Shown: one piece after another, positions 15,114 to 62,000 of the stretch
Layout of the letters: each line of letters opens with the position of its first letter
How positions within the stretch are numbered: the stretch's first letter is position 1
Source: a virus
Length of the DNA: 64,000 nt
IMG/VR virus record: IMGVR_UViG_3300028888_000124
Span: 2,407 to 66,406 of that record
Strand: one strand, 5' to 3'
Notes under the pieces: model-generated
Databases searched by the model: none
What the model was told of the DNA's origin: nothing
Seen by the model: only the letters and a program-made list of their open reading frames with translations
Position numbers and translations under genes: made by a program

Positions 15114-15666
15114 GTTTCTGATTGTCGTAGACATGCAGAATGATTTTGTCACCGGTTCCCTGGGCTCTCAAGAAGCCCAGGGGATCGTTTCCAATGTGGT
15201 AAAGCGGATTGAAAATGCCAGAGAAAACGGCTGGTCTATCTACGCCACGCAGGATACCCATTACGACGATTACCTTGAAACGCAGGAAGGAAAGAAGCTT
15301 CCCGTCCCGCATTGCGTGATCGGAACGGAGGGCTGGGAGCTGGCTCCCGCTGTAGCGGATTGCCTGGAAAAGGAGCCCTTCATGTGCTATGAAAAGAATA
15401 CGTTTGGCAGCGTGAATCTGGCCGAGGATCTTGCCGAGATCATTCACACCGGAGATTTTGACGAGCCTGAATGCGAGATCGAATTGATCGGCCTGTGCAC
15501 GGATATCTGCGTGGTGTCCAACGCTTTGCTTTTGAAAGCCTATCTGCCTGAAGCAAACATTTCCGTCAATGCTTCCTGCTGTGCTGGGGTCACACTGGAA
15601 AAGCACAAGGCCGCACTGGAAGTAATGAGGTCCTGCCACATTAAAGTAATTGAAGGAGAAGAATAA
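15103..15666 (+). CDS. pncA: nicotinamidase / isochorismatase-family cysteine hydrolase (PncA-like)
   Basis: VVDMQNDF, conserved Lys and LCTDICV catalytic Cys motifs. Sits in an operon with nadE, nadD and pncB. Confidence 0.7.
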   Translation: MKTKFLIVVDMQNDFVTGSLGSQEAQGIVSNVVKRIENARENGWSIYATQDTHYDDYLETQEGKKLPVPHCVIGTEGWELAPAVADCLEKEPFMCYEKNTFGSVNLAEDLAEIIHTGDFDEPECEIELIGLCTDICVVSNALLLKAYLPEANISVNASCCAGVTLEKHKAALEVMRSCHIKVIEGEE

Positions 15667-16454
15667 TGTACGATTTTGACCCCGTGGAAACTCGTGATAT
15701 GTTGGTGGCGGGCATCCACCGTATTGCCCGTCAAGGCGGATTTAACAAAGTAGTTATCGGTATTTCTGGCGGAAAGGATTCTACTGTGGCTGCTGCTCTG
15801 TGCGTTCGCGCTCTTGGCAAACAAAATGTGTATGGGGTGCTGTTGCCGGATGGTGTACAAGATGACATTGATGACAGCTATAAAGTTTGTGAAACTCTTG
15901 GCATTCCTTACACAATCATCAATATTGATGAAATGCATGACTCCTTAAAAAATGGAATCATTCTTTCTCTTGACCACAATCACAATATGTCGATTCCATT
16001 TTCCGAAGAAGCTGACATCAACGTGGCTCCCCGCCTTCGTATGACGGTGCTTCGATATATCACGCAAGCATTGGGCGCTCGATTAGCCGGCACTGGAAAT
16101 CTTTCCGAAATGACCGTCGGGTATTGCACAAAAGACGGCGATACCTCCTGCGATTTCTCTGTATTGGGCGGATTAACCAGCATTGAAGTTGTTCAGGTTG
16201 GCTTGACCATGCCTGAGATTCCCCGTGAATTGGTGCTCAAAACGCCCTCCGACGGTTTGTCTGGTATGAGTGATGAAGAAAAGCTGGGTGTTTCCTACGA
16301 GGATATTCATAAGTATATTCGCGGCCTCAAAGGCGTTCCTGAAGATGTGAAGGAAAAGATTTGCAAGCTTCAGGATAGAAGTTCGCACAAGCGCCGTTGG
16401 CCTCCTATTGCTTCTTATACGGTTCACGGGAATAATCTTTGGGAGCCATTTTAA
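15666..16454 (+). CDS. nadE: NH3-dependent NAD+ synthetase
   Basis: PP-loop GISGGKDST; 262 aa. Confidence 0.85.
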   Translation: MYDFDPVETRDMLVAGIHRIARQGGFNKVVIGISGGKDSTVAAALCVRALGKQNVYGVLLPDGVQDDIDDSYKVCETLGIPYTIINIDEMHDSLKNGIILSLDHNHNMSIPFSEEADINVAPRLRMTVLRYITQALGARLAGTGNLSEMTVGYCTKDGDTSCDFSVLGGLTSIEVVQVGLTMPEIPRELVLKTPSDGLSGMSDEEKLGVSYEDIHKYIRGLKGVPEDVKEKICKLQDRSSHKRRWPPIASYTVHGNNLWEPF

Positions 16455-16463
16455 GGAGGCCGT

Positions 16464-17111
16464 ATGAAAAAAGTTTTGGCGTATTGCGGCGCGTTTAATC
16501 CGCCAACAAATGCCCATGTCAATCTTGCGGAATTGGCTTTGAAAGAAACGGGACGGGAACAGGTGGTTTTCGTCCCATCTAAAGCTGAATATATTGTGGA
16601 TGAACAAAAAAAAGAGTATGCGTATGAAGATGCTTTGCGGCTGAATATGCTGGAAGACTTGGCGCTTACTCGCCCATGGATGCATATATGCCGTCATGAT
16701 ATGGAAGGCGAAACACAGCCTCGCACTTACGAAACTTTGTGTTGGCTGAAAGAGCAGGGATATGATCCCGCTTTGCTGATTGGTTCGGATGTGCTTGAAA
16801 GCATGGAAAGAGAATGGAAGAACGCTGATAAGATCGCGCAGGAGTTTGGCATTGTTTGCCTGACAAGAAGTACCCTTCAGTTACCAGATGCCTATCAAGA
16901 TGACGCTTTTCTTGCTCCGCTGCTTCCGCGCATCACTTTTGTCCATTCGCCGGAAGAATATTTGTTGAAGTCATCCACTGGTGCACGCTACCAATATGAT
17001 CAATCCATTCGCTATTGGGAAGGGCTTTGCGATATTGTTCCGCCAGAAGTGGCTGCTTATTTGCTAAAAGATTTTGTGGATATTTTATTAGGAGGTTCTC
17101 ATGAAGCTTGA
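16464..17111 (+). CDS. nadD: nicotinate-nucleotide adenylyltransferase (NadD / NMNAT family)
   Basis: CGAFNPPTNAH nucleotidyltransferase motif; 215 aa. Confidence 0.75.
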   Translation: MKKVLAYCGAFNPPTNAHVNLAELALKETGREQVVFVPSKAEYIVDEQKKEYAYEDALRLNMLEDLALTRPWMHICRHDMEGETQPRTYETLCWLKEQGYDPALLIGSDVLESMEREWKNADKIAQEFGIVCLTRSTLQLPDAYQDDAFLAPLLPRITFVHSPEEYLLKSSTGARYQYDQSIRYWEGLCDIVPPEVAAYLLKDFVDILLGGSHEA

Positions 17112-18318
17112 GCCTATTATTATTTCTTTGCTGGATACTGACCTATATAAATTTAACATGAATCAGGTCATGTTTCATCACCACACGGATTTGTGCGGTA
17201 CTTATGTATTTAAATGCCGAAACAAGGGCGTTCGATTTACACCTGAAATGCTGGATGAGATCAATACACAGATCGATCATTTGTGCACGCTGACATTCCA
17301 GGAAGATGAATTGAATTATCTACGTTCCATCCGTTTTATCAAGCCTGATTATGTTGAGTTTTTGCGCCTGTGGCGTCCCATCCGTGATTATGTGTTTACC
17401 GCTTTGAAGGAGGATACGGGCGAACTGATTGTTCAAGTGAAAGGTCCGCTGTTCTCCGCCATGCAGTTTGAAATCTATCTATTGGAAATCATTAACGAGG
17501 TTTATTTTGCTTTCCAATACAAGGATTATTATGTTGGCATGACAATGGAAGCTGTCAATCGGTTGGATAAAAAGATCGGCGGTTTCATTACCGGACAATA
17601 CACTTTTAAATTTGCCGAATTTGGATGCCGCCGCCGTTGGAACCGAAACTGGGAAGACCGTGTGGTGGAACGCTTTGCCACAGAAACAAATAACATGGTT
17701 GGCACCAGCAACGTGTACCTTGCCAAGAAATATGGACTTACGCCTATTGGCACTTACGCCCATGAATATGTTCAAATGTATCAGGGTATTGACAAAATTC
17801 CTTTGGCATATACCAATTACTATGCGCTAAAGGATTGGTACAATGAATACAAGGGCGATAACGGCACCGCGCTGACCGATACTATCACCACCGATTTGTT
17901 CCTATTGGATTTTGACCGTTCTATGTGCAACAACTTTACCGGCGTTCGTCATGACAGCGGCGATCCCTATGTATGGGGAGAAAAGATCATTGCCCATTAT
18001 CAGAAGTACGGCATCGACCCCAAGACCAAGACGCTGTTATTCTCCGACTCTCTGAATTTCGATAAAGCCCAGGCTTTGTACGATCATTTCAAAGACAGGG
18101 CGCGGGTATCCTTTGGTATCGGCACGTTTGTTTCCAATGATACCGGTGTTGAGCCGCTGAATATTGTGATCAAGCTGCAGGAGGTCAATGGAAAACCTGT
18201 TGCTAAGCTGAGTGATTCCTTGGGCAAAACCATGTGTCAAGACGAAGAATATGTAAAGTATCTTCGCAGCGCGGTGCAATTCAGATTAGATAGAGAAGGA
18301 GCTGGCTATGGAACCTAA
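17101..18318 (+). CDS. pncB: nicotinate phosphoribosyltransferase
   Basis: N-terminal signature LLDTDLYKFNM typical of NAPRTase; 405 aa. Confidence 0.8.
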   Translation: MKLEPIIISLLDTDLYKFNMNQVMFHHHTDLCGTYVFKCRNKGVRFTPEMLDEINTQIDHLCTLTFQEDELNYLRSIRFIKPDYVEFLRLWRPIRDYVFTALKEDTGELIVQVKGPLFSAMQFEIYLLEIINEVYFAFQYKDYYVGMTMEAVNRLDKKIGGFITGQYTFKFAEFGCRRRWNRNWEDRVVERFATETNNMVGTSNVYLAKKYGLTPIGTYAHEYVQMYQGIDKIPLAYTNYYALKDWYNEYKGDNGTALTDTITTDLFLLDFDRSMCNNFTGVRHDSGDPYVWGEKIIAHYQKYGIDPKTKTLLFSDSLNFDKAQALYDHFKDRARVSFGIGTFVSNDTGVEPLNIVIKLQEVNGKPVAKLSDSLGKTMCQDEEYVKYLRSAVQFRLDREGAGYGT

Positions 18319-24650: not shown

Positions 24651-25091
24651 ATGATTTACCGTGAAGAAAAGATGAATCTGTTTTCTGTTCCCCAGGGTTA
24701 TATGCTGGCTCACTGCATCAGCGGTGACTTTGCTTTGGGCGCTGGCGTTGCCAAAGAAATGGACAGGGTATTCAATATGAAGGAGATGCTGAATCTTCTG
24801 TGGGGACCCATCAGCCCGATGAAGGATAAGTGGTCCGCCCCCTGCTGTCTCCCCTGTGCCAACGTGTTTAACCTGGTAACCAAAGAAAAATACTGGCATA
24901 AGCCTACGCTGGCCTCCCTTCGCACTGCGCTGGAAGAAATGTGTTCCCTCGCTGTGGAAATGGGCGTCACCAAAATTGCCATGCCCAAGATCGGCTGCGG
25001 CCTGGATCGCCTGGACTGGGAAAAAGTAAGCCCTATGATCCAGGAGATTTTCGCTGATACGGATATCGAAATTCTGGTGTGCGTATTATGA
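24651..25091 (+). CDS. macrodomain protein (ADP-ribose binding / processing)
   Basis: 146 aa with a macro-domain-like pattern (NLFSVPQGYMLAHCISGDFALGAGVA ... GVTKIAMPKIGCGLDRLDW). Confidence 0.6.
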   Translation: MIYREEKMNLFSVPQGYMLAHCISGDFALGAGVAKEMDRVFNMKEMLNLLWGPISPMKDKWSAPCCLPCANVFNLVTKEKYWHKPTLASLRTALEEMCSLAVEMGVTKIAMPKIGCGLDRLDWEKVSPMIQEIFADTDIEILVCVL

Positions 25092-25321
25092 GTGAAGACA
25101 AGTATGAAGGTTTGACCGTTGATTTCATTGACCGCCCGCTGCCTGAATCGCATCCCGATTTCGTGATGAGGATTAGCTGGTCCTGTCCGGGGCTTGGGTT
25201 TGGCACAGTGGATTTTATCTGGAGAGGCAACGATCTTCACGCTGATACGGAACATATGAGTAAAGCTTTCTTGGAGCGTCTGATGGCATTGGTGCTGCAG
25301 CGTGTGGTCATTGATGGTTGA
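25088..25321 (+). CDS. small hypothetical protein
   Basis: ORF track frame 25079..25321. Confidence 0.35.
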   Translation: MSEDKYEGLTVDFIDRPLPESHPDFVMRISWSCPGLGFGTVDFIWRGNDLHADTEHMSKAFLERLMALVLQRVVIDG

Positions 25322-25333
25322 GAGGAATACAAC

Positions 25334-26548
25334 ATGAAAGAACAAAGCGTTGTTTATCTGGTGAAGGTCGAGCCAGGAGCCAATAATAACAAATACTGGA
25401 AAGCAATGGCTCAAGGCGATCATTTCAACGTTGAGTATGGAAGGGTCGGCGGAACACCGCAGAAGTATTCCTATCCTATTTCCCAATGGAATAAAAAGTA
25501 CAACGAGAAGATAAAAAAAGGTTACGTTGACCGAACGGAATTGGTAGAGGATCTGATTGAAAAAGAAAAGCCCGCTACGCCGGATGGCTATCGTGCTATT
25601 GAAAACAAGGTGATCGCGGATATCGTGTCACGCTTGCAGGCCATGGCAAAGAAAGCGGTCAGCGAAAACTACACCATATCCTCCAGCAAGGTCACCATGG
25701 CAATGGTGTCTGCCGCTCAGGATCAATTAGCAAAGATGGCGGGCATGGCCGCCGCTTCCGTGGAAGAATTCAACCGCGCCTTGATTGAGCTGTTCGGTAT
25801 CATTCCCCGCAAGATGGGCCATGTATCATCCTATATTGCCACCAGCCAAAAGGAGTTTGGCCGTATTCTTGAACGCGAACAGGATCTGCTGGATGTGATG
25901 CGCGGTCAGGTGTATGTGCCGTCCAAGGAAAGCGAAATTGCCCCTCCTCCAAACGGTGAAGCCCACACGATCCTGGAAGAAAAGGGCCTTGTGTTTGAAG
26001 AAGTAACGGACGATGATATCGCCGTGATCAAATCCGCGCTTGGATCCTGTGCCGATAAATTCTGCCGCGCATGGCGAGTTACCAACCTGGCCACACAAAA
26101 ACGCTTTGATGAATATGTGCAGGGCGGCGTGAAGACAAAGCTTCTCTGGCACGGCTCCCGGAATGAAAACTGGTGGAGCATTGTGGGCAGCGGGCTGGTG
26201 TTGCGTCCCACCAATGCGGTCATCACCGGCAAGATGTTTGGCTATGGTATTTACTTTGCCACGAAAGCGCGAAAGTCTCTTGGGTACACCTCTCTTTCCG
26301 GCTCCTATTGGGCGCATGGTTCTTCCCCATCCGCGTTCATGGGGCTGTATGAAGTTGCCTACGGCAAGCCTTACGATGTGCATTCCTTTGATTCCAAATA
26401 TTATTCCCTGAATTATGAAGGGCTGCAGAAGATGTGTCCTGGGGCGAACTGCCTGCACGCGCACGAGGGCCAGATGCTTCGCAATGATGAAATCATTGTG
26501 TATCAGGAATGCCAAACGACAATCAAATATCTGGTGGAGCTCAAATAA
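25334..26548 (+). CDS. WGR-domain plus PARP catalytic-domain protein (H-Y-E triad present)
   Basis: N-terminal WGR-like YLVKVEPGANNNKYWKAMAQG..YGRVG; catalytic LLWHGSRNENWWSIVGSGL, GYGIYFATKA and NDEIIVYQ. Confidence 0.75.
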   Translation: MKEQSVVYLVKVEPGANNNKYWKAMAQGDHFNVEYGRVGGTPQKYSYPISQWNKKYNEKIKKGYVDRTELVEDLIEKEKPATPDGYRAIENKVIADIVSRLQAMAKKAVSENYTISSSKVTMAMVSAAQDQLAKMAGMAAASVEEFNRALIELFGIIPRKMGHVSSYIATSQKEFGRILEREQDLLDVMRGQVYVPSKESEIAPPPNGEAHTILEEKGLVFEEVTDDDIAVIKSALGSCADKFCRAWRVTNLATQKRFDEYVQGGVKTKLLWHGSRNENWWSIVGSGLVLRPTNAVITGKMFGYGIYFATKARKSLGYTSLSGSYWAHGSSPSAFMGLYEVAYGKPYDVHSFDSKYYSLNYEGLQKMCPGANCLHAHEGQMLRNDEIIVYQECQTTIKYLVELK

Positions 26549-43401: not shown

Positions 43402-43734
43402 ATGGAAATTCTTTATGAACATGTTGCTGGTTCCGCGCCATGTATGCCGCTTGCAATTGTGGCGTGGAGTATCGCTGGGCTGATTTCTCTCTGGACTATC
43501 TATGAAGCAATTAAAGATGAAGATTCTTCATACTTGCTTATTCTTTTCCTCACGGGCATTATAGCGCTTCTTGGGTTCAAATCTACAGCTGATACCCGCT
43601 ACAACGAAGTAGTCGCTACAATCAATGAAAACGTTTCCTGGACTGAAGTGAACGATAGGTATGAACTGCTAAAACAAGAGGGTCAGCTTTATACCTTCAA
43701 AGTCAAAGAGGCACCCGATGAAGCAGAAGAATGA
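43402..43734 (+). CDS. small membrane protein
   Basis: ATG after GGAGGAATAAT, in the frame of track ORF 43360..43734. Confidence 0.4.
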   Translation: MEILYEHVAGSAPCMPLAIVAWSIAGLISLWTIYEAIKDEDSSYLLILFLTGIIALLGFKSTADTRYNEVVATINENVSWTEVNDRYELLKQEGQLYTFKVKEAPDEAEE

Positions 43735-44230
43735 TCTTGATTTAATCTGCGCCGATTAGTCGATGCGCTGTCCCGGCTTCGCGTAGATTCATTACAGCGC
43801 CAAAGAGCGTAAAGCGGCAGTAGTTCGCATGAGCTACGTGGATAACCACTATTCCAAAAAGCCACACGGCCAAATGCTTTCCGAGATCGCCCATGAATTC
43901 CGCACCTATCTCAAGGAAAAGCCAGACGCTATCCTCGTTCGGGAGCGTGGCTTCTTTCGGTTCGCAGCGGAAACAGAAGTGTAGTGCCGGGTCATTGGGG
44001 TGTCCGACCTGTATGCTTGGGCAACGGGGGAAAAGGTGTTTCAGGAAATCTCCCCAAAGGAAATCAAAAAATAGGTTGCAGGTTCCGGCAAAGCCGACAA
44101 ACAAGCGGTAGCGGATGCTTTGGAAAAATATGTGGGCAAATTGGAATATGAGCGTGACGACTGCAGTGATGCTGTGGCTGTAGGAATCGCCTGGCTGATT
44201 CAAAATAAATAGATCGATACCAAAGATTAA
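43718..44230 (+). CDS. RuvC-family Holliday-junction resolvase with 5 in-frame TAG codons (43757, 43784, 43982, 44072, 44210)
   Basis: RBS AAAGAGG then ATG. Translation LICAD(TAG)SMRCPGFA(TAG)IHY ... DCSDAVAVGIAWLIQNK resembles RuvC N- and C-terminal motifs; TAA stop. Not in the track because TAG splits it. Confidence 0.65.
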
Positions 44231-47553: not shown

Positions 47554-47658
47554 TTATTCGAAGATAAGTTTGAACAGGATGCTGATCTACTGCTTCACAG
47601 CTTCGATCAGCAGAGCCCATCCAAGATCAGACAGAAACTTGCGAATCTTATCTTTCAC
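47554..47658 (-). CDS. small hydrophobic peptide (34 aa, GTG start; TAG at 47587 read as sense)
   Basis: RBS GGGGCGGAGGTGATTCAA then GTG; consensus promoter immediately upstream. Confidence 0.35.
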
Positions 47659-47753
47659 TTGAATCACCTCCGCCCCAGGGCTTGCGTTTCAATTGCAGCC
47701 AATATGTAAACAATCGAATTCACCCCTGGCTGGTTTCCTCACGGCTTATCTGT

Positions 47754-47782
47754 ATTTTATCATATATCACCAATATTTTCAA
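47754..47782 (-). promoter_or_regulatory. near-consensus sigma70 promoter TTGAAA, 17 nt spacer, TAAAAT (leftward)
   Basis: Hexamers and spacing read on the minus strand. Confidence 0.5.
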
Positions 47783-47891
47783 CCACCGCAGAGAAGCAAG
47801 CAGATTCTCGTTCAGCCAGAAGATCTCTGCACTTTATCCTCAAGACACGTAAATGCCAGGTTATTGCTGCGAAGTGTCTTTTGTCTTGGGC

Positions 47892-50871: not shown

Positions 50872-50982
50872 TTAACGCTTCATATATTCTACCTTTTCCG
50901 TGCTGGCCGTTTGGCTGCGAACCTCACAAACAACCGCAGGGTATCCCATCAGAACCATCATAAGTGCATAACCAATGCTCAT
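50872..50982 (-). CDS. small hydrophobic peptide (36 aa)
   Basis: RBS GGAGGTAAAGTAATA then ATG; transcript driven by the promoter at 51147..51175. Confidence 0.35.
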   Translation of the reverse strand: MSIGYALMMVLMGYPAVVCEVRSQTASTEKVEYMKR

Positions 50983-51146
50983 TATTACTTTACCTCCATC
51001 AATTGTGATTTTCCAAAGAGTCTGACTTTTGTTATCGGCCTTTCGGCCAAGAGGTATTTCGCAACTTATATTGACGCAGCACAGCAAAATGTACATGAAG
51101 CAAACAAATAGCTTGCGTCAGCAGTTCATGGGATTCTGCCTGTTTG

Positions 51147-51175
51147 CAGTATAGCAGATACGGCCAGCTTTGTAA
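51147..51175 (-). promoter_or_regulatory. near-consensus sigma70 promoter TTTACA, 17 nt spacer, TATACT (leftward)
   Basis: Read on the minus strand. Confidence 0.5.
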
Positions 51176-51354
51176 ATAGCTACACCGCAGAGTGGATGAT
51201 GCGGGATAAAAATATCGACCATCCCTCATGGGTGGGGACACTGAAAGACTGTCAGCCACATGAGGTGAGTCCAATAGCCCATGGTTCTAATGGACGATGC
51301 GTGAACGGCGAAGCGTTAGCGAAGCCTAAAAAGAACCTGAAACGCTTGGCAAAA

Positions 51355-51392
51355 ACAAAACGAGCCCTTTCGGGCCCGCCCGGAAGCTCGGC
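51355..51392 (-). terminator. Rho-independent terminator downstream of hicA (gggccc-GAAA-gggctc plus GTTTTGTTTTTG)
   Basis: Read on the minus strand. Confidence 0.45.
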
Positions 51393-51399
51393 TGACATG

Positions 51400-51600
51400 T
51401 TACCGAAGTCGCACGTCAGTCGTACTCTCTATGCTTTTCTGCGTCCCTATGGGCTACTCTTTCGAGAACGGGATCGTAACGGTTTTCCCATCTAAGGACT
51501 TCATAACCGTGTGGCTGCCCTTGCCACGTTTCGGGATGGCGGTCCATCCCTACTTAACCAGCATAGAGATGACTTCCTTTGAAGAATAGGTTTTCTTCAT
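51400..51600 (-). CDS. hicA: HicA-family mRNA interferase toxin (66 aa) with 2 in-frame TAG codons (51550, 51454)
   Basis: RBS GGAGGTGAGGCCG then ATG. Translation VK(TAG)GWTAIPKRGKGSHTVMKSLDGKTVTIPFSKE(TAG)PIGT matches HicA motifs L.K.GW...KGSH...vT.P.H...lp.Gt. Promoter TTGACT, 17 nt spacer, TATGCT lies upstream. Confidence 0.6.
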
Positions 51601-51664
51601 CGGCCTCACCTCCAAATGAAGCATACACGATGAAGAATTCAAAGTCAAGTCCCGGGCGGGATTT

Positions 51665-51695
51665 ATATAAAAAGCTCCGCTGTGTGGAGCGGAGC
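51665..51695 (-). terminator. hairpin ctccgct-ccacaca-agcggag plus CTTTTTA on the minus strand
   Basis: Read directly from the sequence. Confidence 0.4.
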
Positions 51696-51699
51696 CGTT

Positions 51700-52025: not shown

Positions 52026-53210
52026 TTGACGGTTGACACTTGTAATGAATCTTTATATACTAAAGATGAGTTGGAAGAAGTAGCCAAGATGACTGCCAGC
52101 GCGGTTGTCCAAGAACTGCTTCATTCCAACGTGAACCTTGACAACTCCATATCTGAGATTATAAATGTGCCAGAAAGGACAAATGATATGGCACGTATCA
52201 AACAAAGAGTTGTCCTCCCGAACGGACAGACCGTATGGTGCACAGGAGATACAATTGGAGACGCTATTACAAACCTCATGTCGCATATCGCTATAAACAA
52301 TAACGCGCCAAAACGAACAACCCCAACCTTACAGGAATACGGAGACAAATGGTATCACCTATACCACATCAAAAAAGTAAAGTGGAATACCGCGCAAAAC
52401 ACTCGTATCTATTTGGACAAACATATCTATCCGATAATTGGAGAAAAGCATCTTGATGAAATCACATTTGACGATATTCAATCTGTTTTCAACTCCATGG
52501 ATAGCTTGGCACGATCAACTGTTGAGAAGGTACAAATTGTCCTCAATCAAATTATGAAGAATGCAATAGAAGATGGCTACATCGAGAAAAACGTTATGTC
52601 ATCTTCTCGGTATGTGTTAAGCAAGAAAGTTAAGCAGAGAGAAGCTCTATCTACATCATCCGCACAAGATGTTATCAGACAGCTGGACACCCTGGAACCA
52701 AACGATAAAATTCTTATGGCACTCATTATCTTCACAGGACTTCGGCGTGGAGAAATTCTTGCGCTGACTTGGGACGATATTGATTTTGAAAACAAAGTAA
52801 TCCACGTAAAGCACAGCGTCACATTTAAAAATAACCAACCAATCATCTGCGGGACAAAAAGCAAGTCCGGCGTAAGAGACGTTCCAATAATAAAGGAGCT
52901 AAGGGAAATACTGAGCGCGGAAGAAGATAAGCATGGCTACATCATAAAGAATCATAAGTTCCCGGACATGCCGATTACAGAAAAAACATATCAGCGGGCA
53001 TGGGAGCGAATCAAAAAAACAATTGATCTTCACAATGCTACAGCCCATGTATTCAGACACACTTTTGCCACAATGATGGAGCCACACACAGACATAAAAA
53101 CTCTGCAGACAATAATGGGGCATGCGGATATTCAAACAACAATGAACCGATATACGCATAAAATTGATAAAAATATACAGGCACTTGCAGAAATCGATTC
53201 TTTTGTGTGA
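52026..53210 (+). CDS. int: tyrosine integrase (phage integrase family)
   Basis: AHVFRHTFAT (HxxR) and NRYTH catalytic Tyr motifs. AT-rich and TAG-free, compositionally distinct from its neighbours. Confidence 0.85.
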   Translation: MTVDTCNESLYTKDELEEVAKMTASAVVQELLHSNVNLDNSISEIINVPERTNDMARIKQRVVLPNGQTVWCTGDTIGDAITNLMSHIAINNNAPKRTTPTLQEYGDKWYHLYHIKKVKWNTAQNTRIYLDKHIYPIIGEKHLDEITFDDIQSVFNSMDSLARSTVEKVQIVLNQIMKNAIEDGYIEKNVMSSSRYVLSKKVKQREALSTSSAQDVIRQLDTLEPNDKILMALIIFTGLRRGEILALTWDDIDFENKVIHVKHSVTFKNNQPIICGTKSKSGVRDVPIIKELREILSAEEDKHGYIIKNHKFPDMPITEKTYQRAWERIKKTIDLHNATAHVFRHTFATMMEPHTDIKTLQTIMGHADIQTTMNRYTHKIDKNIQALAEIDSFV

Positions 53211-54769: not shown

Positions 54770-55558
54770 TCACACCCCCAGAGAAGTGCCCAATGCTGCG
54801 AACAATTCTCTGGCAGCCTGCGTGGAAAGAATCACAACCACCGTGTCATCTGTGGCCGGAGTGGTTTGTCCTCCATCTACCTTTTGAAGGAACTTGCTCA
54901 TCATATAGCCATCCTTGTTTTTCGTATGAATTTTTGACCAACCGCTGTCCTATTCACCGAGTACCTGTACGATTGTGCCAATGCGGATGGGCTCCAGGAT
55001 TGTCGCGTTTGTGTTGGGATTCGCCCGCATGTTCACAGTAGCGCCGCTTTGCGCCACCACCTTTGCCGAATAATTGAGCTCGCTCATTTCACGATCATCT
55101 CCCCCATTTTGTTTAATCAAATCCAATGTTCCAGTATAGTGCCACGCACCAAGTTTACTGTCTCGCTGAATACCGCCCACCACGCTGGTGCAGTGTGTAA
55201 TACACAGCGGAGAAACAGATGTGACAACGCCGACATGGTAATAGTCTCTTTGGTCTGGATGATTTCTGTAAGCATCCGGCTACGACCATTTTGCGTCGCC
55301 TGGTTCCCGCGCCTTGAAGACAAGATCACCCAAAGACAATTCAGAGGCGGAGGATACATAATGGAAATTCACCACCCTGTTTCTGGCCGTGTAATTGCTT
55401 CCGTGTGTTCCAGTCCATTTAGCGCCGCAAAGACGGACAGCCCCGATGATCTATCCGATACAATCGCATTTGCCGCCGGTTCCGTCACAAGCGTTTTGAT
55501 ATTGATTCACACGGGAAACATTTTTTTGAACTCCGTCTAAAAATTCATTCAGGGTCAT
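54770..55558 (-). CDS. endolysin: CHAP-like amidase/peptidase domain plus a C-terminal SH3b cell-wall-binding domain; 3 in-frame TAG codons (55451, 55280, 54950)
   Basis: RBS AGGTGATAGTG then ATG. Catalytic Cys/His-region motifs KCDC.., PGDLVF, DYYHVGVVTSV; SH3b-like ATVNMRANPN..GWSKI..GYMMSKFL. Contains track ORF 54950..55183, whose stop is a TAG. Confidence 0.7.
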
Positions 55559-55781
55559 CACTATCACCTGATTCCGCGTCTTCGTTTTCTGTCTCTTCCT
55601 CTGGAAGGTCTGCCAACGGGATCATTTCGTTTGTTTCCTCATATTCCCGATCCTCATCGGCTGGATCAATTGCGTCCTCATATTTGACGCCGTCCCGCGT
55701 AATATATACCCCAATGTCTGAATACGTGCGGTACAGCGTCACACCGTCACTGCGAACCACATAAAGCTCTTTCACGATCAT
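55545..55781 (-). CDS. small acidic protein
   Basis: ORF track. Confidence 0.3.
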   Translation of the reverse strand: MIVKELYVVRSDGVTLYRTYSDIGVYITRDGVKYEDAIDPADEDREYEETNEMIPLADLPEEETENEDAESGDSDDPE

Positions 55782-56952
55782 GCTGATTCCTCCTTCTTAT
55801 TTCTCTCTTCGAAAACCATGGAAAATCTCTTTGCTCCTTCGGAAACAATTCCCTCACTAACTGTTCCATTTTACAAATCGTTCTGAACGCCATAAAATTT
55901 CTTGCGTATGCCCGCCAGGAAATGAAGGATTGAAAAACTTCAAGCGGTGTCATCTTTCCATTTTCCACCCGTGTCTTTAACCGTTTCAACTTCCGCCTTT
56001 CTACCACAACGCTGTGCTTATATATTTTTTTGATTACCTTGCCGCTGTTCGTCAGGTAGAATCGCGCTTTAAGAAAAGTGAATCCATGGGTCAGCTTCAC
56101 AATCTGCGTTTTCTTTGTATTCATCACAATGCCAAGCTCGTCGCAAATCCTGCGAATCTCTTTGAGGCAATGCCGCAAGTATTCCTTGGATGGGTGAATC
56201 AGGTATCCGTCATCCATATATCTTCCGTACCATTTGATCCTGAGCACTTCCTTCACGTAATGATCCAAACGGTTGGCGGAGGCAAGCGCCTATATCTGAC
56301 TTACCTGGCTGCCCAGTCCCAAACCTTTATCGCCAAACATGTGAACCATTTGCATAGCGACACTCTTTATTTCATTGTCCGAAACTGCCCGGTCGATCAC
56401 CTGTTCTATGACGGCGTGTGACACATTATCAAAGAATTTGCTGAAATCAAAAAGCAGCACATATCCATCATTTCCGTATTTCCGGTAATACTGGCGCAGG
56501 TGCGTTTCCATTCGCCTGATCGCAAATGCGTATCCCTTGTTCTCCATTGACGCGCCGTTATCATATATAAAAGAGCGTTTGACGGCGGGAACCAGGGCGT
56601 AATCGCAAAGACAGCGCTGTACACCACGCTCTCGAACTGTCACGCTTTTGATGTGGCGGTCATGGCCGCGTTCCCTGATATCAAACTCATAGAATTTATC
56701 TGGCTTGAATTTGCGTTTCTTCATTCTCCGGTAGCATTTTTCCACTTCCGTCGGAGCAAAGACGATTTGCTTTTGAATGCTGGCCTTCCATCTTACGCCA
56801 CGAGTGCATAGCTGAAAAGCCCGATAAAGGTGAGGATAGCTGAAAACCTGATCGTATGTGCCGATCTGGTTTTTGTTATATTCTTTCTATTTCTGTTTTC
56901 TCTTTTGAATACGGCGCTGGTATCTCGCCTCATGCCTTTCTTTGCTGTTCAT
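55747..56952 (-). CDS. DGR reverse transcriptase (motif 4 LGSQVSQ of the SQ type, YMDD); 2 in-frame TAG codons (56887, 56290)
   Basis: Fuses track ORFs 56290..56745 and 55747..56268 across the TAG at 56290, which sits in the S(P/Q)LLAN motif, and extends to the ATG at 56952 after GGAGGAAGA. RT motifs 1 to 7 are recognisable. Confidence 0.85.
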
Positions 56953-57180
56953 TCTTCCTCCAAAAATGGGCAGTCGCCCACGTCTGATAGATGGCTTTCC
57001 GCGATAGACGCATAGAACCACTGGGCATGAAACAAAGGGTTCGCCATCGACCTTTGCCATGCAAGAAGCGTCCGCCCAGGTTCGTCACGACTGATATTTA
57101 CGCTGAATGCGAAGGTTATTTCCTCCTTCTCTCCACCCGCGCTGATTTCGCAAAGCCTACTTTGTCTGACGGAGAGGATC

Positions 57181-57301
57181 CGAAGACCACGCCATTCGTG
57201 TTGGTCGGACCGTTATTGTTGTTGTTGCCGTTGTTGTTCACATTCACGAAGTTCGAAGTCGAATTCGCAGAACGGGTCCACCAGTTGTTCGTAGAGCCGG
57301 T
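57181..57301 (-). repeat. DGR template repeat (TR); AAC/AAT-rich, about 120 bp
   Basis: Aligns to VR1 and VR2 with all mismatches at TR adenines. Confidence 0.8.
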
Positions 57302-57336
57302 CTCATACAGGAAATAACCTCAATTAAAATGATAAA

Positions 57337-57750
57337 TTAAAATGGTTCGTTCAAAAACGACCAACGCTTTTTATCTGTTTCCATTACGCCTTGAATCAGG
57401 CGCATCTCTTCATTGATTTTTTCACTCCATTGCTGTATAATATTTTTGTCAATACCGAATCTGCCGTCTGCGAGGCCGATGAAACAGTCCAGCTTTTTCA
57501 GTTCACCAATGGCTTTCATGAAATAATCTTTTCTGGTCTGCAGCTCTCCTGCGTTCGTCGGCCAGATGTTATTGGCTTCGATCACATGACCGCAGGTATC
57601 AAGCGCTGCGTCGATGATTCTTTGCCCCAGGCCGAAGCGCTGTCCCTTTGGAAAATGCCCATACTGCACAAGCGTGAAGGCTGCCTATTCGCGGGCTTGA
57701 TAAATAAATTGCGTTGATGGTTCTGATCGTAGACTTTTAGGGACTGACAT
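57337..57750 (-). CDS. avd: Avd-like DGR accessory protein (four-helix-bundle protein family); in-frame TAG at 57685
   Basis: QRFGLGQRIIDAALDT..IEANN pattern of the four-helix-bundle family. ATG at 57750 after AGGAGG, in frame with track ORF 57337..57669. Sits between the target gene and TR-RT. Confidence 0.7.
57373..57405 (+). promoter_or_regulatory. plus-strand copy of the TCTGTTTCCATTAC motif followed by the hairpin cgcct-tgaatc-aggcg, inside the minus-strand avd gene
   Basis: Read directly from the sequence. Confidence 0.3.
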
Positions 57751-57769
57751 TTCCTTTTATCCTCCTGCG

Positions 57770-57800
57770 AAGAGTGGGGAGGGACGGAGCCCTCCCCGAT
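57770..57800 (-). other. GC-rich stem-loop ggggaggg-acggag-ccctcccc immediately 3-prime of VR1 (DGR homing-associated hairpin)
   Basis: Inverted repeat. An analogous hairpin, ggggcggcg..cgccgcccc, follows VR2 at about 58960..58990. Confidence 0.5.
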
Positions 57801-57817
57801 TTTAAGATTTTAGATTA

Positions 57818-58936
57818 TCAAATGCAGAAGCCGAAGACCACGCCATACGTGCCGGTCGGACCGTAATTGCCGCTGCCGCCGCCGCCGTACACACTCACGA
57901 AGTACGAAGTCGAAAACGCAGAACGGGTCCACCAGGAGTTCGTAGAGCCGGTTGATGTAAACCTGACCCTGCTTGAGCTATCATCAAAAATGCCGGTATA
58001 CTGCACGCCGCTTGTTTCTTTCAAATAGTTGCCCGTAAAACATACTTCGCGGGATGACGGGATCCACAGCTTGTCGCTGCTTGTTTTCTATTCCCCAGCG
58101 TTGCTGTTGGCGGTTGCGTCCCAATAGGTTTTGTTGACCGCCTTGATAACGCCTTCCGCCTGCAGTTCGGAAGGAAGCTGACTGAACACTGTATCGTTCA
58201 GCCAATACCGCATAGTGTTGGTTCCGCTTGCGCCCCAGCCATCGGTCATGCTGCTTCCCATTGCGTGGGTGCCATATTGCTGGGCAAGGAGCCACGTCAT
58301 TTTTGCGTTTCCGCCGCTGGTCAGTTCGTCCGCGTTTTTGGCTGCCAGCGTAATAATATAATTCGTTCCATTCAGGTTGATGTACGCCGTGTCCCCCACG
58401 TTGTATTTGGAATCAAACGTCCCATCCTCTCCGGCGGCAATGATTTGTGCCCAGGTATCGGTAATTGTTACGAAGCTTGTTTTCGGATAGGAGCTGATGG
58501 GAAAAATCACATTGCGGTATGCTTTCCAGTTGCTGGCAGCTTTATAGGTATCGACAAGATTGTCGGTCACATAAATACCCGCCTGGCCTTTTGCAATAGG
58601 AGTGCTGGCAAATGCGTCATAATTGTTCAACGTGCAAGCTTGGGCATTTTCCAGAATCACGCCCTTTAAAGCGGAGCACCCTGAAAAGGCAGACTGGATT
58701 GCACACTTGCCGCCAATTCTTACCGTTTCCTATGCGGTGCAGTCACTAAAAGCAGAAGAACCCAAAGAGGTCAGAGTGGGAAAATTCACGTCCTTCTACG
58801 TGGTCTGCTTATACATTGCGTATTGACCGAGCGTAGATATGCCGTCGTCCACAAACTCTGTCAGCGTATGGGCGATCAAAGCATCCAATGTTCCTTGGTC
58901 TCCCAGCGTTGCTTTGGTGTTGGTATATGTTGCCAC
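57818..58936 (-). CDS. DGR target protein 1: LRR (BspA-type) plus a C-terminal variable domain ending GVVFGFCI; 3 in-frame TAG codons (58796, 58730, 58088)
   Basis: Fuses track ORFs 57818..58024 and 58088..58660 and extends to the GTG at 58936. It is a paralogue of the C-terminus of the giant gene. VR1 lies at 57832..57952. Confidence 0.7.
57832..57952 (-). repeat. DGR variable repeat 1 (VR1)
   Basis: Matches TR except at TR adenine positions. Confidence 0.8.
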
Positions 58937-59003
58937 AAAAACACCTTCTTTCAAAGAGTGAGGGGCGGCAGGGACGCCGCCCCGATTTTAAGATTTCAGA
59001 TTA

Positions 59004-62000
59004 TCAAATGCAGAAGCCGAAGACCACGCCAAGCGTGCCGGTCGGACCGTTACTGCCGATGCTGCCGTAGTAGAGCACACTCACGAAGCCCGAAGTCGAA
59101 TACGCAGAACGGGTCCACCAGTTGCTCGTAGAGCCGGTAGTCAAATCGTATTTCTTCCTATTATTATTGCTTGTGAATTTGCTGGAATAAATAACGCCGC
59201 TCGTCTCCTGCGCGTATTGCCCAGTGAAGCCAACCTCCCGTCCAGATGCCAGCCAAACCTTCATTGCCGCAGTTTGAGTTGTGTTTGCTGAAGCGTCCCA
59301 GTATGTCTTATCAACAGACTTGATACCAGTTGACGCTTTCAACGCAGCGGGCAGACTGTTGTATACATCATTTTCCAGGTATGTGCACATTTCTGTCTGG
59401 ACATAAGGGACCATTGAACCGTGCATGCGTTTCGTTTCCGCAAAGTCCTTGACCATCCATGCAGTCTTCGCCGTTCCTTCTTCACCGATATTGACCAGCT
59501 CCATCATAACCAGCTTGCCGTCTCCGTAAGTAACGGACTTGGTTGCGCCCACCGTGTATGAGAATGTACCGGAGTTAATATTACTTACGATGGTAGCCCA
59601 GTCATCGGTAATAGAACCAAAGTCTGTTACAGGGTAATCTCCGATTGGATGGATTCTGCTGGCATATGCGCTCCAATTGGTTGCGGACTTGTACTGTGCC
59701 ACCAATGAGGCGGGCACATAAATTACTCCGAAACCGGAAGTGAACGGGTTAGAAGGCAAAGCGTTAGATGAAGCCAACGTAGCCACGCCAGATGTGGAAC
59801 GAATAAACAGAGCAGTCAGCGCATTACAGCTTGAGAATGCGTTTGCCGCAATACTCACTTGCCCGCTTGTCGCGGTCAAGTCAACGGTGTTCAGTTTGGA
59901 ACAGCCAGAGAAGGCATATTGCTCAATCGTGGTAGCGGATGTTGTTGCTGTTTCCAGCGTGCTCATATTATAGAACGCATATTGTCCAACCGTTGTAGCC
60001 GTGTCGCTCTCGTACTCCGTCATGGTTCTCGCCAGATACTTCACAATCGGAGAACTCATATCCCGGAACACAGCATAGCATGTGGTGTTGCCCTGAATAT
60101 TCGTAGGAGCAGGAGACCATCCGTCAAACACAAACGCGCTGCCGCGAGATGAGGTAGGCGTTGATCCGGTATAGCTTGCGCTTCCGCCATAAGGCACATT
60201 GTTCACTGTCTGCAATGTTCCGCCGCCGTCAGTAGAATTCTTGGCGAAAGTTACGGTGTAAACCTGTCCGGTCAGGCGGTAAGCCGCATAGACGTTTCTA
60301 TCCGCCGTCACGTTTTGCGTGGCCGTGCTGTCCACTGTGGTGGAATTTGTGTTCCTGCTCCATCCAATGAATGTAAAGGTATTCGCTGCCGTAGCCGCGT
60401 GTGTTGGTTGGCCGCTCCAAGTTCCATTACCACCGTCAACAATCGTATCGGTGTGGAGAAGCGTATCACCCTCGTAGTTATAGTAATGCAGATAACTGGT
60501 GATATGATCAAACAATACAGTAATATCGGGATATCGTTCCTGCAGGCTGGCCATTTGTGCGCCTGTCAAAGAAGGAATATGGATCACGCCGCGCACCTGC
60601 GCTCTGTCCACATTGCCGCCGTTTTCGTCCAGGCCCCGCATGGTATCCTACTTGTTATACAGCGCGTTTGCCGCCGCGTAGTCCACCATATTCCAGGTAA
60701 ATCCAATCAGCCGCAGACGGGAATTGGCCGCCAGGGAATTGACGATAGAAGCAGAATCAATTGTATTGCTCACGTTTTCCAGTCTCAAGGTGGTAATGTT
60801 CGCCCCAGAAGGAAGCGTGAATTCCGTAATGCCTGTCTGGTTCAGGATCGTCAGGTTGGTGATCGTAGAAGGAAGATGCAGTTTTTTCAGCACACCGCCG
60901 TTAGGCAGGGCCACGCCTGTAATCTGCGTTCCGTCAAAGTAGACTTCTTCAATGGCTATGCAGCCGGAAAGGTCAACCGATTTCTGGTCGCCCGTTCCAA
61001 GCGCTGTGCAGTTCCGAGCGTCCAATGTCTTGAGCAGCTTGTTGCTTCCCAGCGTCAGGTTGTTCAGGTTGGGGTTTTCATAGTTTGCGTCCGAATCGCC
61101 CACCTTGATGTGCTGCAGGTTGACGCCCATGGAGAAGTCGGCAAAGCCCACCTTCAACCCGGACAAGTCGCCGCAGGATGCAATCTGGGGCGCGGAATAG
61201 ATATAGATTTCTGTATCGTTCACGTTGTCCAGCGGGCAGGCCAGGGTTGTCGCCTGTCCATGCGTGCCGCGCTGCTGCACCAGGTAAGAGGCGTATTTCA
61301 CGGTTGGGTAAATGTCAGTGTAAGGAGTAAGGGTGATGTCCGCTTTTGCGTAACCGCGCAGCTGGATCACCTGGCTCAATGCCTCACCCGCATTCCATTT
61401 GGAATCCAGATACTTGAAGCGGTTATACAGCCACCATTTTCTTTGTTCCGTCTTTGATCCCTGCAGCATTGGCAGATATACGGCTGTTGGCTGCTTGCCG
61501 GGGTCGGGAGAAATCAGCGGCATAATGTATTTGAACCATGCGTCTTCGTTCCACACGGCTTCCGGCCATTTCTCCTGGTGCGTTTCAAAGCGCCGCTCCA
61601 CTTCCGCGTAAGACAGCGTTCCGTTTGAGCGCAGGGTTTGGTACATTTGCCGGATCTCGTTGGAGAATGCGTCGCGCACATTGCACCACAGCACGGAATC
61701 CTGTCCGTTGAACACGTTCGCGCCTCCGGCAAGATGGTCGGTGTCTTCCAAAGAATATCCAAACACCAGCGAGCCTTCGTTGTTCGTGCCAAGGCCGGTA
61801 TCCATGTCGTAAGGTTCCGCCACCGCTTTACGGTCAATATGCTGAATCTTTGTGGGGTCGGTGTCTGAGCCGGAGAAACCAATAAACAGGTTCTTGGCTC
61901 GGCTGTCCACCATCAGGAAGAATTCCGTAAAGATATAATAGAAGATAAAGGACTGCACTTCGGCGTAATTGCCAAACTCCGCCTTGAACTTCGCCAATCT

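What the first reader, a model, noticed from the sequence alone, without database searches (positions are those of the whole stretch)
51355..51640. Orphan HicA toxin gene with its own promoter and terminator, and two recoded TAG codons
A 66 aa HicA-family mRNA interferase lies on the minus strand between two terminators, under a TTGACT, 17 nt spacer, TATGCT promoter. The motifs KGSH and the conserved His and Gly positions are present.

No HicB-like antitoxin (RNase-H-like fold plus HTH) is adjacent. Both TAGs sit at conserved Leu positions, so active toxin would be made only when the suppressor is present.

This could be a phage-timed host shut-off or abortive-infection countermeasure. Alternatively, its antitoxin may be encoded elsewhere.
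Basis: partly seen in the sequence, partly recalled or inferred. Interest (0 to 1): 0.5.

Follow-up and report, generated by a model that had tools for sequence, protein, structure and literature searches.

The report
Orphan HicA toxin gated by TAG
A small RNA-cutting toxin gene in a rumen phage has no antidote gene next to it and is interrupted by two TAG "stop" codons that this phage seems to read as leucine, so the toxin can probably be made only when the phage's own decoding machinery is switched on.

Summary
Window 51400-51600 (-) is a 66-codon HicA-family gene (Pfam 1.4e-11), with the GSH catalytic His intact and in-frame TAG at codons 17 and 49. It has a TTGACT-17-TATGCT promoter, a GGAGGTGA ribosome-binding site and hairpin terminators on both sides.

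No HicB was found next to it, in the window's other likely-coding small ORFs, or in the 70-kb source contig. The closest standard-code homologues have hicB directly downstream.

The window is part of a temperate phage. Early genes and the integrase have no TAG. Late, lysis, DGR and RuvC genes carry in-frame TAGs, and no checked gene ends in TAG. Homologue columns and ortholog codon swaps point to TAG = Leu, not the Gln reported for recoded phages.

The hicA cassette recurs at 79-95% nucleotide identity in rumen contigs, beside different integrases and never with hicB. It keeps its TAGs, and most relatives have a third. Its dN/dS is 0.3-0.5.

Most likely the amber codons stand in for the antitoxin, so HicA is made only when a Leu-inserting suppressor is present. 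That suppressor tRNA was not found, and roughly half the genome is unseen. The biological role is inferred.

The parts
51673..51696 (-). Upstream insulating intrinsic terminator (9-bp stem GGCUCCGCU/AGCGGAGCU followed by UUUUU), which ends the preceding 41-codon ORF.
   Evidence: Terminator scan. Fold of -16 kcal/mol, z = -5.2.
51620..51648 (-). Sigma-70-type promoter: -35 TTGACT (51643-51648), 17-nt spacer, -10 TATGCT (51620-51625).
   Evidence: The -35 is kept in 5 of 6 diverged copies (TTGGCT in L139). The -10 is TATGCT or TAGAAT at the same position.
51606..51613 (-). Shine-Dalgarno site GGAGGTGA, 5 nt upstream of the ATG.
   Evidence: Invariant in all six copies.
51400..51600 (-). hicA coding sequence: 66 codons plus a TAA stop. 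His30 codon at 51511-51513.
   Evidence: Pfam HicA_toxin 1.4e-11. PHROG 353 toxin. PDB HicA hits. Family alignment. dN/dS 0.32-0.50 among copies.
51550..51552 (-). In-frame TAG, codon 17.
   Evidence: TAG is kept in all seven copies seen. The family column is A 42 / L 31 / others.
51454..51456 (-). In-frame TAG, codon 49.
   Evidence: TAG in window, L134, L135, L136 and L138; CTG (Leu) in L137 and L143. The family column is I 59 / L 46 / V 4 / M 2 / F 1 with no Gln.
51439..51441 (-). Codon 54. It is CAG (Gln) here, but TAG in L134, L135, L136, L137, L138 and L143.
   Evidence: The family column is Leu 100/112 and Gln 0/112.
51348..51381 (-). Intrinsic terminator 19 nt after the stop codon (GGGCGGGCCC-GAAA-GGGCUCG followed by UUUUGUUUUU).
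   Evidence: Compensatory stem changes in relatives.
52026..53210 (+). Tyrosine integrase with no TAG. It places the hicA cassette in the lysogeny region.
   Evidence: Pfam Phage_integrase 1.4e-28. 0 TAG in 394 codons.

Best explanation
hicA is a single-gene, code-gated toxin cassette carried in the lysogeny region of a temperate rumen phage. That phage reads TAG as a sense codon, best fit Leu, in its late genes.

Proposed steps:
1. The cassette is transcribed from its own host-type promoter.
2. In a cell that decodes TAG as stop, ribosomes terminate at codon 17 and no toxin is made.
3. When a Leu-inserting amber-suppressor tRNA is present, full-length HicA is made and cleaves RNA. The phage presumably supplies this tRNA in the late lytic phase, when its other TAG-bearing genes (lysin, holin-like protein, RuvC, DGR, fibre) must be translated.
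4. The TAG codons therefore do the job normally done by the HicB antitoxin.

The likely use is a late-phase shut-off of host and early transcripts.

Shown by the data: family membership, intact catalytic residues, cassette anatomy, absence of hicB in the available DNA, stage-specific use of TAG, the Leu-like character of TAG positions, and conservation of the cassette and its TAGs.

Inferred: the suppressor tRNA, the timing, RNase activity, toxicity and the biological role.
For: (1) HicA family with His30, Gly28 and Ser29 intact.

(2) No HicB.
- The flanks are terminators.
- A Pfam scan of 65 likely-coding small ORFs of the window returned 18 families, none of them HicB or UPF0150.
- A HicB HMM found nothing above noise in the six-frame translation of the 70-kb contig.
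- The neighbours of the cassette in L134 and L136 also lack HicB.
- Control: the closest standard-code homologues do have hicB 10-60 nt downstream. This holds for L001-L005 and for P0133 and P0134.

(3) TAG is sense and stage-specific.
- There are 0 TAG against 427 Leu codons in 12 early or lysogeny genes, versus 27 TAG against 269 Leu codons in late-type genes (Fisher p = 1.6e-11).
- All 26 checked genes whose stop codon was included in the count end in TAA or TGA; hicA itself ends in TAA.

(4) TAG is approximately Leu.
- Lysin columns are L 104/120 and L 117/120.
- Two TAGs in the LRR repeats align with Leu of the paralogue.
- hicA columns 49 and 54 are I/L and L.
- Summed log-odds over 6 columns are Leu +13.7 bits, with the next best Ile at -5.6.
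- In ortholog comparisons TAG swaps with TTG, CTG, CTT or TTA in 8 of 21 changed pairs.

(5) The cassette (window 51349-51674) is 91-95% identical in L134, L135 and L136, and 79-80% in L137, L138 and L143. Its flanks and integrases differ. L143 comes from a Clostridiales rumen MAG.

(6) dN/dS is 0.32-0.50 at dS of about 0.5, with no frameshift or TAA/TGA in 6 of 7 copies. The part downstream of TAG17 is therefore under selection.

(7) hicA has the highest TAG density of any gene: 3.0 per 100 codons against 0.62 in the other TAG-bearing genes (p = 0.06). With the third TAG of the relatives it is 4.5 per 100 (p = 0.008). The only comparable gene is the other nuclease, RuvC, with 5 TAG.
Against: - No suppressor tRNA was found in the window or in the 70-kb contig.
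- The contig lacks capsid, portal and terminase genes, so a large part of the genome is unseen. That part could hold both the tRNA and a hicB.
- The promoter is only a 9/12 consensus match.
- Several copies carry changes that might weaken the protein: Gln54 in the window copy, TAG in place of the near-invariant Gly18 in L137 and L143, and a 50-nt deletion in L139.
- dN/dS of 0.3-0.5 is only moderate constraint.
- The TAG enrichment in the window copy alone is not significant (p = 0.06).
- An unselective RNase made late would also hit phage late mRNAs.
Confidence: 0.45

Rival explanations
1. The translational gating is the same, but the main role is defence of the lysogen. The prophage transcribes hicA constitutively, like a moron. 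A superinfecting phage that brings the same amber suppressor unlocks the toxin and aborts its own infection. The cassette would thus be a sensor of a foreign genetic code.
For: - The cassette has moron architecture: a host-type promoter and terminators on both sides. It sits next to the integrase, outside the late operon, in all three contexts where flanks are available.
- It moves between phages with different integrases.
- Borges et al. raise the idea that recoding lets a phage sense superinfecting phages through suppressor tRNAs.
Against: - Induction of the prophage itself would also unlock the toxin.
- There are no expression data.
- PADLOC gives only a weak HicA-like hit (E = 0.0014).
- The same facts fit a late lytic role.
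Confidence: 0.2
2. This is a conventional type II HicAB system whose HicB is encoded elsewhere, either in the unseen part of the phage genome or in the host. Under this view the TAG codons only reflect the phage's general late-gene codon usage.
For: - About half of the genome is missing.
- TAG occurs in many other genes of the phage.
Against: - In every close standard-code homologue examined except one, hicB is immediately downstream (the exception is).
- In this clade a terminator follows hicA in all copies, and the cassette moves without a partner.
- hicA has the highest TAG density in the window.
- No HicB was found in 70 kb here or in the sequenced flanks of L134, L136 and L143 (about 2 kb downstream and 4-10 kb upstream of hicA in L134 and L136; 10 kb downstream and under 0.5 kb upstream in L143).
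Confidence: 0.2
3. The gene is a decaying remnant. An orphan toxin left after loss of hicB is tolerated because the TAGs keep it silent in the host, and it has no current function.
For: Potentially damaging variants exist: Q54 in the window copy, Gly18 replaced by TAG in L137 and L143, and a 50-nt deletion in L139. Purifying selection is only moderate.
Against: - Six of seven copies keep an intact frame of 65-66 codons, with no TAA or TGA and all catalytic residues.
- The promoter, RBS and terminator are conserved, with compensatory changes.
- dN/dS is clearly below 1 at dS of about 0.5.
Confidence: 0.1
4. The TAGs are genuine stop codons, making this a plain pseudogene with two nonsense mutations in a standard-code genome.
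For: No suppressor tRNA was found. Standard-code gene callers see no gene here.
Against: - In-frame TAGs also interrupt the lysin, RT, RuvC, holin-like and fibre genes, at positions where homologues have Leu.
- TAG is never used as a terminator.
- TAG17 is kept in every copy, while synonymous sites have diverged by about 0.5.
- The sequence downstream of TAG17 is under purifying selection.
Confidence: 0.03

Closest known systems
HicAB type II toxin-antitoxin systems (E. coli K-12 hicAB; Burkholderia pseudomallei HicAB, PDB 4C26/6G26; Thermus 1WHZ; Streptococcus pneumoniae 5YRZ).
   Same: The same Pfam family (PF07927) and the same Gly-Ser-His catalytic motif. The size is similar, at about 60-70 aa. 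A Leu/Ile sits before the P-x-G-T motif.
   Different: There is no HicB partner. A terminator follows the toxin gene directly. Two (in relatives three) in-frame amber codons are present. The gene is carried as a mobile single-gene cassette in a phage lysogeny region.
Stop-codon-recoded phages (crAss-like, Lak, Agate and others; Borges et al., bioRxiv 10.1101/2021.08.26.457843; Peters et al., PMC9523058).
   Same: In-frame TAG is confined to late, lysis and structural-type genes. Early replication genes and the integrase are free of it. The phage is large and gut-associated, and the host presumably uses the standard code (paper text).
   Different: [quoted passage not shown] No suppressor tRNA or release factor is seen in the 70 kb available. 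That preprint does not mention any toxin (0 occurrences of 'toxin').
Phage morons and PHROG 353 'toxin' (category: moron, auxiliary metabolic gene and host takeover).
   Same: It is an independent promoter-gene-terminator unit inserted in the lysogeny region, and it matches the phage toxin family at 3.8e-13.
   Different: No match was found in 50,697 GenBank phage records by tblastn at E <= 1e-3 or by megablast of the 12-kb surroundings. Gating by a reassigned stop codon is not a described feature of morons (my own knowledge).
T4 RegB endoribonuclease. This is a functional analogy only, from my own knowledge, and was not tested.
   Same: It is a phage-encoded small RNase whose proposed use is stage-specific removal of earlier transcripts.
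   Different: The fold and family are unrelated. RegB is an early gene controlled at the transcriptional level, not by codon reassignment.

Membership tests
HicA toxin family (PF07927) | Sequence match to the family profile above the curated threshold. | tested here: met
   44.8 bits against a 27-bit cut-off, E = 1.4e-11, covering residues 7-57. PHROG 353 at 3.8e-13. PDB HicA chains at E about 2e-4.
HicA toxin family (PF07927) | Conserved catalytic His in the G-S-H motif. | tested here: met
   G28, S29 and H30 are present. In homologues His is 112/112, Gly 112/112 and Ser 109/112.
HicA toxin family (PF07927) | dsRBD-like alpha-beta3-alpha fold. | not tested
The fold is inferred only from sequence alignment to solved HicA chains.
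HicA toxin family (PF07927) | Ribosome-independent mRNA cleavage and growth arrest. | not testable with these tools
   This needs expression and RNA-cleavage assays.
HicAB type II toxin-antitoxin operon | An adjacent, co-transcribed HicB antitoxin gene. | tested here: not met
   A terminator lies 19 nt after the stop codon. No HicB or UPF0150 family appears among 65 small ORFs. The HicB HMM finds nothing in the 70-kb contig, and relatives L134 and L136 have none. Standard-code homologues do have it.
Stop-codon-recoded phage (TAG reassigned) | In-frame TAG in genes whose full-length homology continues across the TAG, with TAG not used as a terminator. | tested here: met
   This holds for the lysin, RT, RuvC, LRR/DUF6273 protein and HicA. 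All checked genes end in TAA or TGA.
Stop-codon-recoded phage (TAG reassigned) | Recoding confined to late genes; early genes and integrase compatible with the standard code. | tested here: met
   0 of 427 against 27 of 296 Leu-type codons, p = 1.6e-11.
Stop-codon-recoded phage (TAG reassigned) | TAG decoded as Gln (genetic code 15), as in described recoded phages. | tested here: not met
   Columns opposite TAG are Leu-dominated. Gln is 0/120, 0/112 and 0/112 at the three best-conserved sites. Log-odds are Leu +13.7 bits. Ortholog swaps are mainly to Leu codons.
Stop-codon-recoded phage (TAG reassigned) | A phage-encoded suppressor tRNA with a CUA anticodon. | tested here: inconclusive
   None in the window, in the 70-kb contig or in the related loci held. 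The genome is incomplete. Borges et al. find suppressor tRNAs in only 35-40% of recoded phages.
Phage moron | An autonomous promoter and terminator around an accessory gene, variable between related phages. | tested here: met
   The cassette is conserved while its flanks differ. It is absent near DUF5662 in 80 related large phage loci. Expression in the lysogen was not tested.

The most novel reading that the evidence does not exclude
A toxin-antitoxin logic with no antitoxin. A mobile one-gene HicA cassette is kept harmless by amber codons, and it fires only when a Leu-inserting amber-suppressor tRNA appears in the cell. It would then act as a sensor of the phage's alternative genetic code, either timing its own late phase or aborting superinfection by same-code phages. 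It occurs in a phage lineage that reads TAG as Leu, a reassignment not found in the phage recoding papers searched here.
Probability: 0.35. Interest if true: 0.85.

Novelty: new variant of a known kind. Interest (0 to 1): 0.62.

Why it matters
If correct, this is a concrete and easily testable case in which a change of genetic code serves as a safety catch on a lethal gene. The toxin needs no protein or RNA antidote, because the host simply cannot translate it.

That would turn the general proposal that phage recoding regulates late genes into a single-gene experiment: the TAG allele against the CTG allele, with and without a Leu amber suppressor.

It also flags two wider points. A rumen phage clade appears to read TAG as Leu rather than Gln, which matters for phage gene calling. 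Here standard-code gene callers miss hicA and report a spurious antisense ORF. In addition, 'orphan' toxins in metagenomes may be under-counted because recoded copies are truncated in protein databases.

Tried and rejected
- A word-indexed protein search with X at the TAG sites found no candidates. It was repeated successfully with a small alignment.
- An IMG/VR search with the RT gave nothing. With the integrase it gave only hits of 30% identity or less. With HicA it gave only 48-56% Desulfovibrio-type hicAB loci.
- Megablast of 46-58 kb and tblastn of HicA against 50,697 GenBank phages found no match.
- tRNA searches were negative. These covered ARAGORN on the window, the contig extensions and all hicA-bearing relatives, plus Rfam at gathering level and at E <= 1 around 46.4-53.7 kb. 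tRNAs near DUF5662 in distant relatives include no CUA anticodon.
- HicB was sought by local HMM and by Pfam on small ORFs, without result.
- Antisense control was considered. No promoter-like site on the + strand points into hicA. The antisense ORF 51196-51495 has a negative coding score.
- The 97%-conserved block 50980-51312 downstream of hicA was considered as a possible antitoxin. It is the promoter and first 39 codons of an unrelated 211-aa ORF that is intact in L134 and absent from L136, so it was rejected.
- A tally of residues opposite TAG in apparently TAG-rich IMG/VR relatives gave a mixed K/S/E signal, probably from spurious read-through ORFs, and was not used.
- RuvC against PDB gave V and S/A opposite two TAGs, which is uninformative.
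- The conserved ORF-free stretch 47600-47810 shows no significant RNA structure.

Full report
**What is at the coordinates**

On the minus strand an ORF runs from ATG (51598-51600) to TAA (51400-51402). It has 66 sense positions, with TAG at codon 17 (51550-51552) and codon 49 (51454-51456).

With the TAGs masked as X, several searches place it in the HicA family:
- Pfam HicA_toxin matches residues 7-57 at E = 1.4e-11 (44.8 bits, cut-off 27), so the match runs across both TAGs.
- PHROG 353 'toxin' matches at 3.8e-13.
- Solved HicA chains match at E about 2e-4.
- In an alignment with 112 database homologues, His30 of the G-S-H motif is invariant (112/112). Gly28 is 112/112 and Ser29 is 109/112.

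The expression signals are as follows:
- Upstream lie TTGACT, 17 nt, TATGCT (51648-51620) and GGAGGTGA 5 nt before the ATG.
- A 9-bp hairpin plus U-run (51696-51673) precedes the promoter.
- An 8-bp GAAA-loop hairpin plus U-run (51381-51348) follows the stop codon.

The promoter is only a 9/12 consensus match, and such matches are not rare here (11 found against 5.8 expected). Its -35 box and the ribosome-binding site are nevertheless essentially unchanged in five diverged copies of the cassette, and the terminator stem shows compensatory changes.

The hicA frame has the best codon-usage score of the six frames. The antisense ORF 51196-51495 that standard-code gene calling reports on the source contig scores negative.

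**Context**

The window is 64 kb of a roughly 69.95-kb metagenomic contig that was assembled twice independently (JGI 3300032030 and ENA ERZ27257205).

The plus strand from 1 to about 46 kb carries replication and nucleotide-metabolism genes. These include primase-helicase, Pol III alpha, NrdD/NrdG, DNA and RNA ligases, SSB, an NAD salvage set, PARP and Macro.

The minus strand from 64 kb down to 53.5 kb carries a giant fibre-like protein, a diversity-generating retroelement, an SH3 lysin and a holin-like protein. A tyrosine integrase (52026-53210, +) faces these genes, and hicA lies just beyond it.

No capsid, portal or terminase gene is present. The contig ends in repeats, so the genome is incomplete. 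DUF5662 relatives sit in 100-220-kb phage contigs.

**TAG is a sense codon in the late-type genes**

In-frame TAGs interrupt the following genes, in each case with homology continuing across the TAG:

| Gene | In-frame TAGs |
|---|---|
| Lysin | 3 |
| RT | 2 |
| LRR_5/DUF6273 DGR target | 3 |
| Giant protein | 2 in the window |
| Holin-like protein and two neighbours | 1-2 each |
| RuvC-like resolvase (43718-44230) | 5 |
| Several small plus-strand genes at 40-50 kb | 1-2 each |

Twelve early or lysogeny genes contain 0 TAG against 427 Leu codons. The late-type genes contain 27 TAG against 269 Leu codons (p = 1.6e-11). Every checked gene ends in TAA or TGA.

**Which amino acid TAG encodes**

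- In 120 full-length lysin homologues the columns opposite TAG are L 104 / Q 14, L 117 / I 2 / V 1, and one variable column.
- Two TAGs in the LRR repeats align with the defining Leu of the paralogous repeats.
- The hicA columns are A/L (variable), I 59 / L 46, and, for the third TAG carried by relatives, L 100/112.
- Summed log-odds over six columns give Leu +13.7 bits, with the next residue (Ile) at -5.6.
- Between the window and its relatives L136 and L134, TAG exchanges with TTG (3 times), CTG (3), CTT and TTA. That is 8 of 21 changed pairs. It exchanges with CAG only at hicA codon 54.

The main survey of recoded phages reports only TAG to Gln and TGA to Trp. Two literature searches found no phage paper describing TAG as Leu.

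No tRNA of any kind is detected in the 70 kb or in the related loci I hold. The decoding agent is therefore inferred. From general knowledge, bacterial LeuRS does not read the anticodon, and Leu-inserting amber suppressors such as E. coli supP work well. A tRNA-Leu(CUA) is thus a plausible agent.

**No antitoxin found**

- Both flanks of hicA are terminators.
- The ORFs within about 800 nt have no family match.
- A Pfam scan of 65 likely-coding small ORFs of the window returned 18 families, with no HicB, HicB-like or UPF0150.
- A HicB profile built from the nearest hicAB loci found nothing in the six-frame translation of the whole contig with TAG read through.

As a control, the closest standard-code homologues do carry hicB immediately downstream. 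This holds for L001-L005 (48-56% identity) and for P0133 and P0134. One homologue, P0138, has no called hicB.

**Relatives of the cassette**

A metagenome scan and a genome scan with HicA found six further copies plus one duplicate:

| Locus | Source and features |
|---|---|
| L134 / L135 | L134 is from a 116.8-kb contig |
| L136 | About 72-93% nucleotide identity and largely syntenic across lysin, holin, hicA and DUF5662 |
| L137 / L143 | Independent samples; L143 is binned in the Clostridiales rumen MAG RUG12722 |
| L138 | Short contig |
| L139 | Carries a 50-nt internal deletion |

- The segment from promoter to terminator (window 51349-51674) is 91-95% identical in L134-L136 and about 80% in L137, L138 and L143. 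The flanking DNA and the integrases differ. The cassette is therefore mobile.
- None of the contexts has hicB.
- TAG17 is present in every copy.
- TAG49 is present in all but L137 and L143, which have CTG (Leu).
- Six of the seven relative loci have a third TAG at codon 54, where the window has CAG; the seventh, L139, has lost that segment through its 50-nt deletion.
- Pairwise dN/dS is 0.32-0.50 at dS of about 0.5, so the sequence beyond codon 17 is under purifying selection.

hicA has the highest TAG density in the window, at 3.0 per 100 codons against 0.62 for the other TAG-bearing genes (p = 0.06). With three TAGs, as in the relatives, p = 0.008. The only comparable gene is RuvC, the other nuclease.

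**Interpretation**

The simplest account that covers these facts is that the amber codons act as the safety catch. The gene can be transcribed by host RNA polymerase, but a standard-code cell stops at codon 17. Full-length HicA appears only when a Leu-inserting amber suppressor is present, which is also the condition under which the phage's lysin, resolvase and fibre genes can be translated.

I put this at about 0.45 as a late-phase function of the phage's own cycle. A further 0.2 goes to the variant in which the prophage uses the cassette to sense and abort superinfection by same-code phages. That variant fits the moron-like position beside the integrase.

The other rivals are:
- a conventional HicB encoded in the unseen half of the genome or in the host (0.2);
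- a decaying remnant (0.1), supported by Q54 in this copy, TAG in place of Gly18 in L137 and L143, and the deletion in L139;
- a plain pseudogene (0.03).

**Limits**

Everything about activity, toxicity, timing and the suppressor is inferred. The TAG enrichment rests on a 66-codon gene and seven copies. The promoter is a modest consensus match. Structure prediction could not be run on the read-through sequence.

Noticed in passing
window 40000-64000, both strands; for example 43718-44230 (+), 54770-55558 (-), 57818-58954 (-): TAG behaves as a sense codon that best fits Leu, not the Gln reported for recoded phages. It occurs only in late-type genes. Early genes and the integrase have none, and no checked gene ends in TAG. 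No suppressor tRNA is present in the 70-kb contig.
   Followed up: yes
window 55747-59138 (-): A complete diversity-generating retroelement is present. It comprises RT 55747-56952, Rfam RT-2 RNA 56951-57174 (127 bits), template repeat 57120-57301 and a bAvd-like gene 57337-57750. There are two variable repeats: 57771-57952 in an LRR_5+DUF6273 protein and 58957-59138 at the C-terminus of the giant protein. TR/VR differences in the homologous ~120 nt appear, by eye, to fall mostly at TR adenines (over the full 182-nt blocks the count is about half: 34 of 67 and 33 of 63). The RT itself contains two TAGs.
   Followed up: partly
window 43718-44230 (+): A RuvC-like resolvase (PHROG 159, 1.2e-21) has five in-frame TAGs, the highest count per gene. 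Together with HicA it has the highest TAG density, and both are nucleases.
   Followed up: partly
window 51196-51495 (+): Standard-code gene calling on the public source contig misses hicA. Instead it reports a 98-aa antisense ORF with a negative coding score and no family match. This is an annotation artefact of the recoding.
   Followed up: yes
window 50980-51312 (-): This block is 97% identical to L134 and L135, more conserved than hicA itself. It holds a strong promoter-like site (TTTACA-17-TATACT with TG, 51176-51148) and the first 39 codons of a 211-aa ORF. That ORF is intact in L134 but truncated to 74 aa here (50872-51096), which marks a recombination scar. The protein has no family match.
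   Followed up: partly
window 15070-18318, 24651-26548 (+): A cluster of NAD-related genes is present: a nicotinamidase/isochorismatase-like gene, a NadE-like gene, an NMNAT-like gene and NAPRTase (Pfam 8.7e-66). A Macro-domain protein and a PARP+WGR protein lie nearby. This may be an NAD-replenishing counter-defence set. The nicotinamidase-, NadE- and NMNAT-like identities are my reading of the translated sequences, not database hits; these three ORFs were dropped from the Pfam scan. NAPRTase, PARP+WGR and Macro are Pfam hits.
   Followed up: no
L137 and L143 (hicA codons 17-18); window 51439-51441: Two independent samples carry a hicA variant with TAG TAG, in which the second TAG replaces the near-invariant Gly18. 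The window copy has Gln (CAG) at codon 54, where relatives have TAG and the family has Leu in 100/112. TAG = Leu alone does not explain either observation.
   Followed up: partly
L006 1-870 and L010 1-1088 (ends of the source contig, outside the window): The left contig end is a tandem 'TGHRNTGDGN' peptide repeat. The right end is a tail-fibre-like repeat protein. Both ends point inward, and no structural genes lie in the 70 kb, so the assembly is a fragment broken at repeats.
   Followed up: partly
window 6151-7074 (+): A second, shorter integrase-family gene (307 aa, Phage_integrase) lies among the early genes, far from the 394-aa integrase at 52026-53210.
   Followed up: no
window 47625-47789: This ORF-poor stretch is 93% identical to L136, whereas the flanking coding DNA is 78-81% identical. 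No Rfam hit and no significant RNA fold were found.
   Followed up: partly
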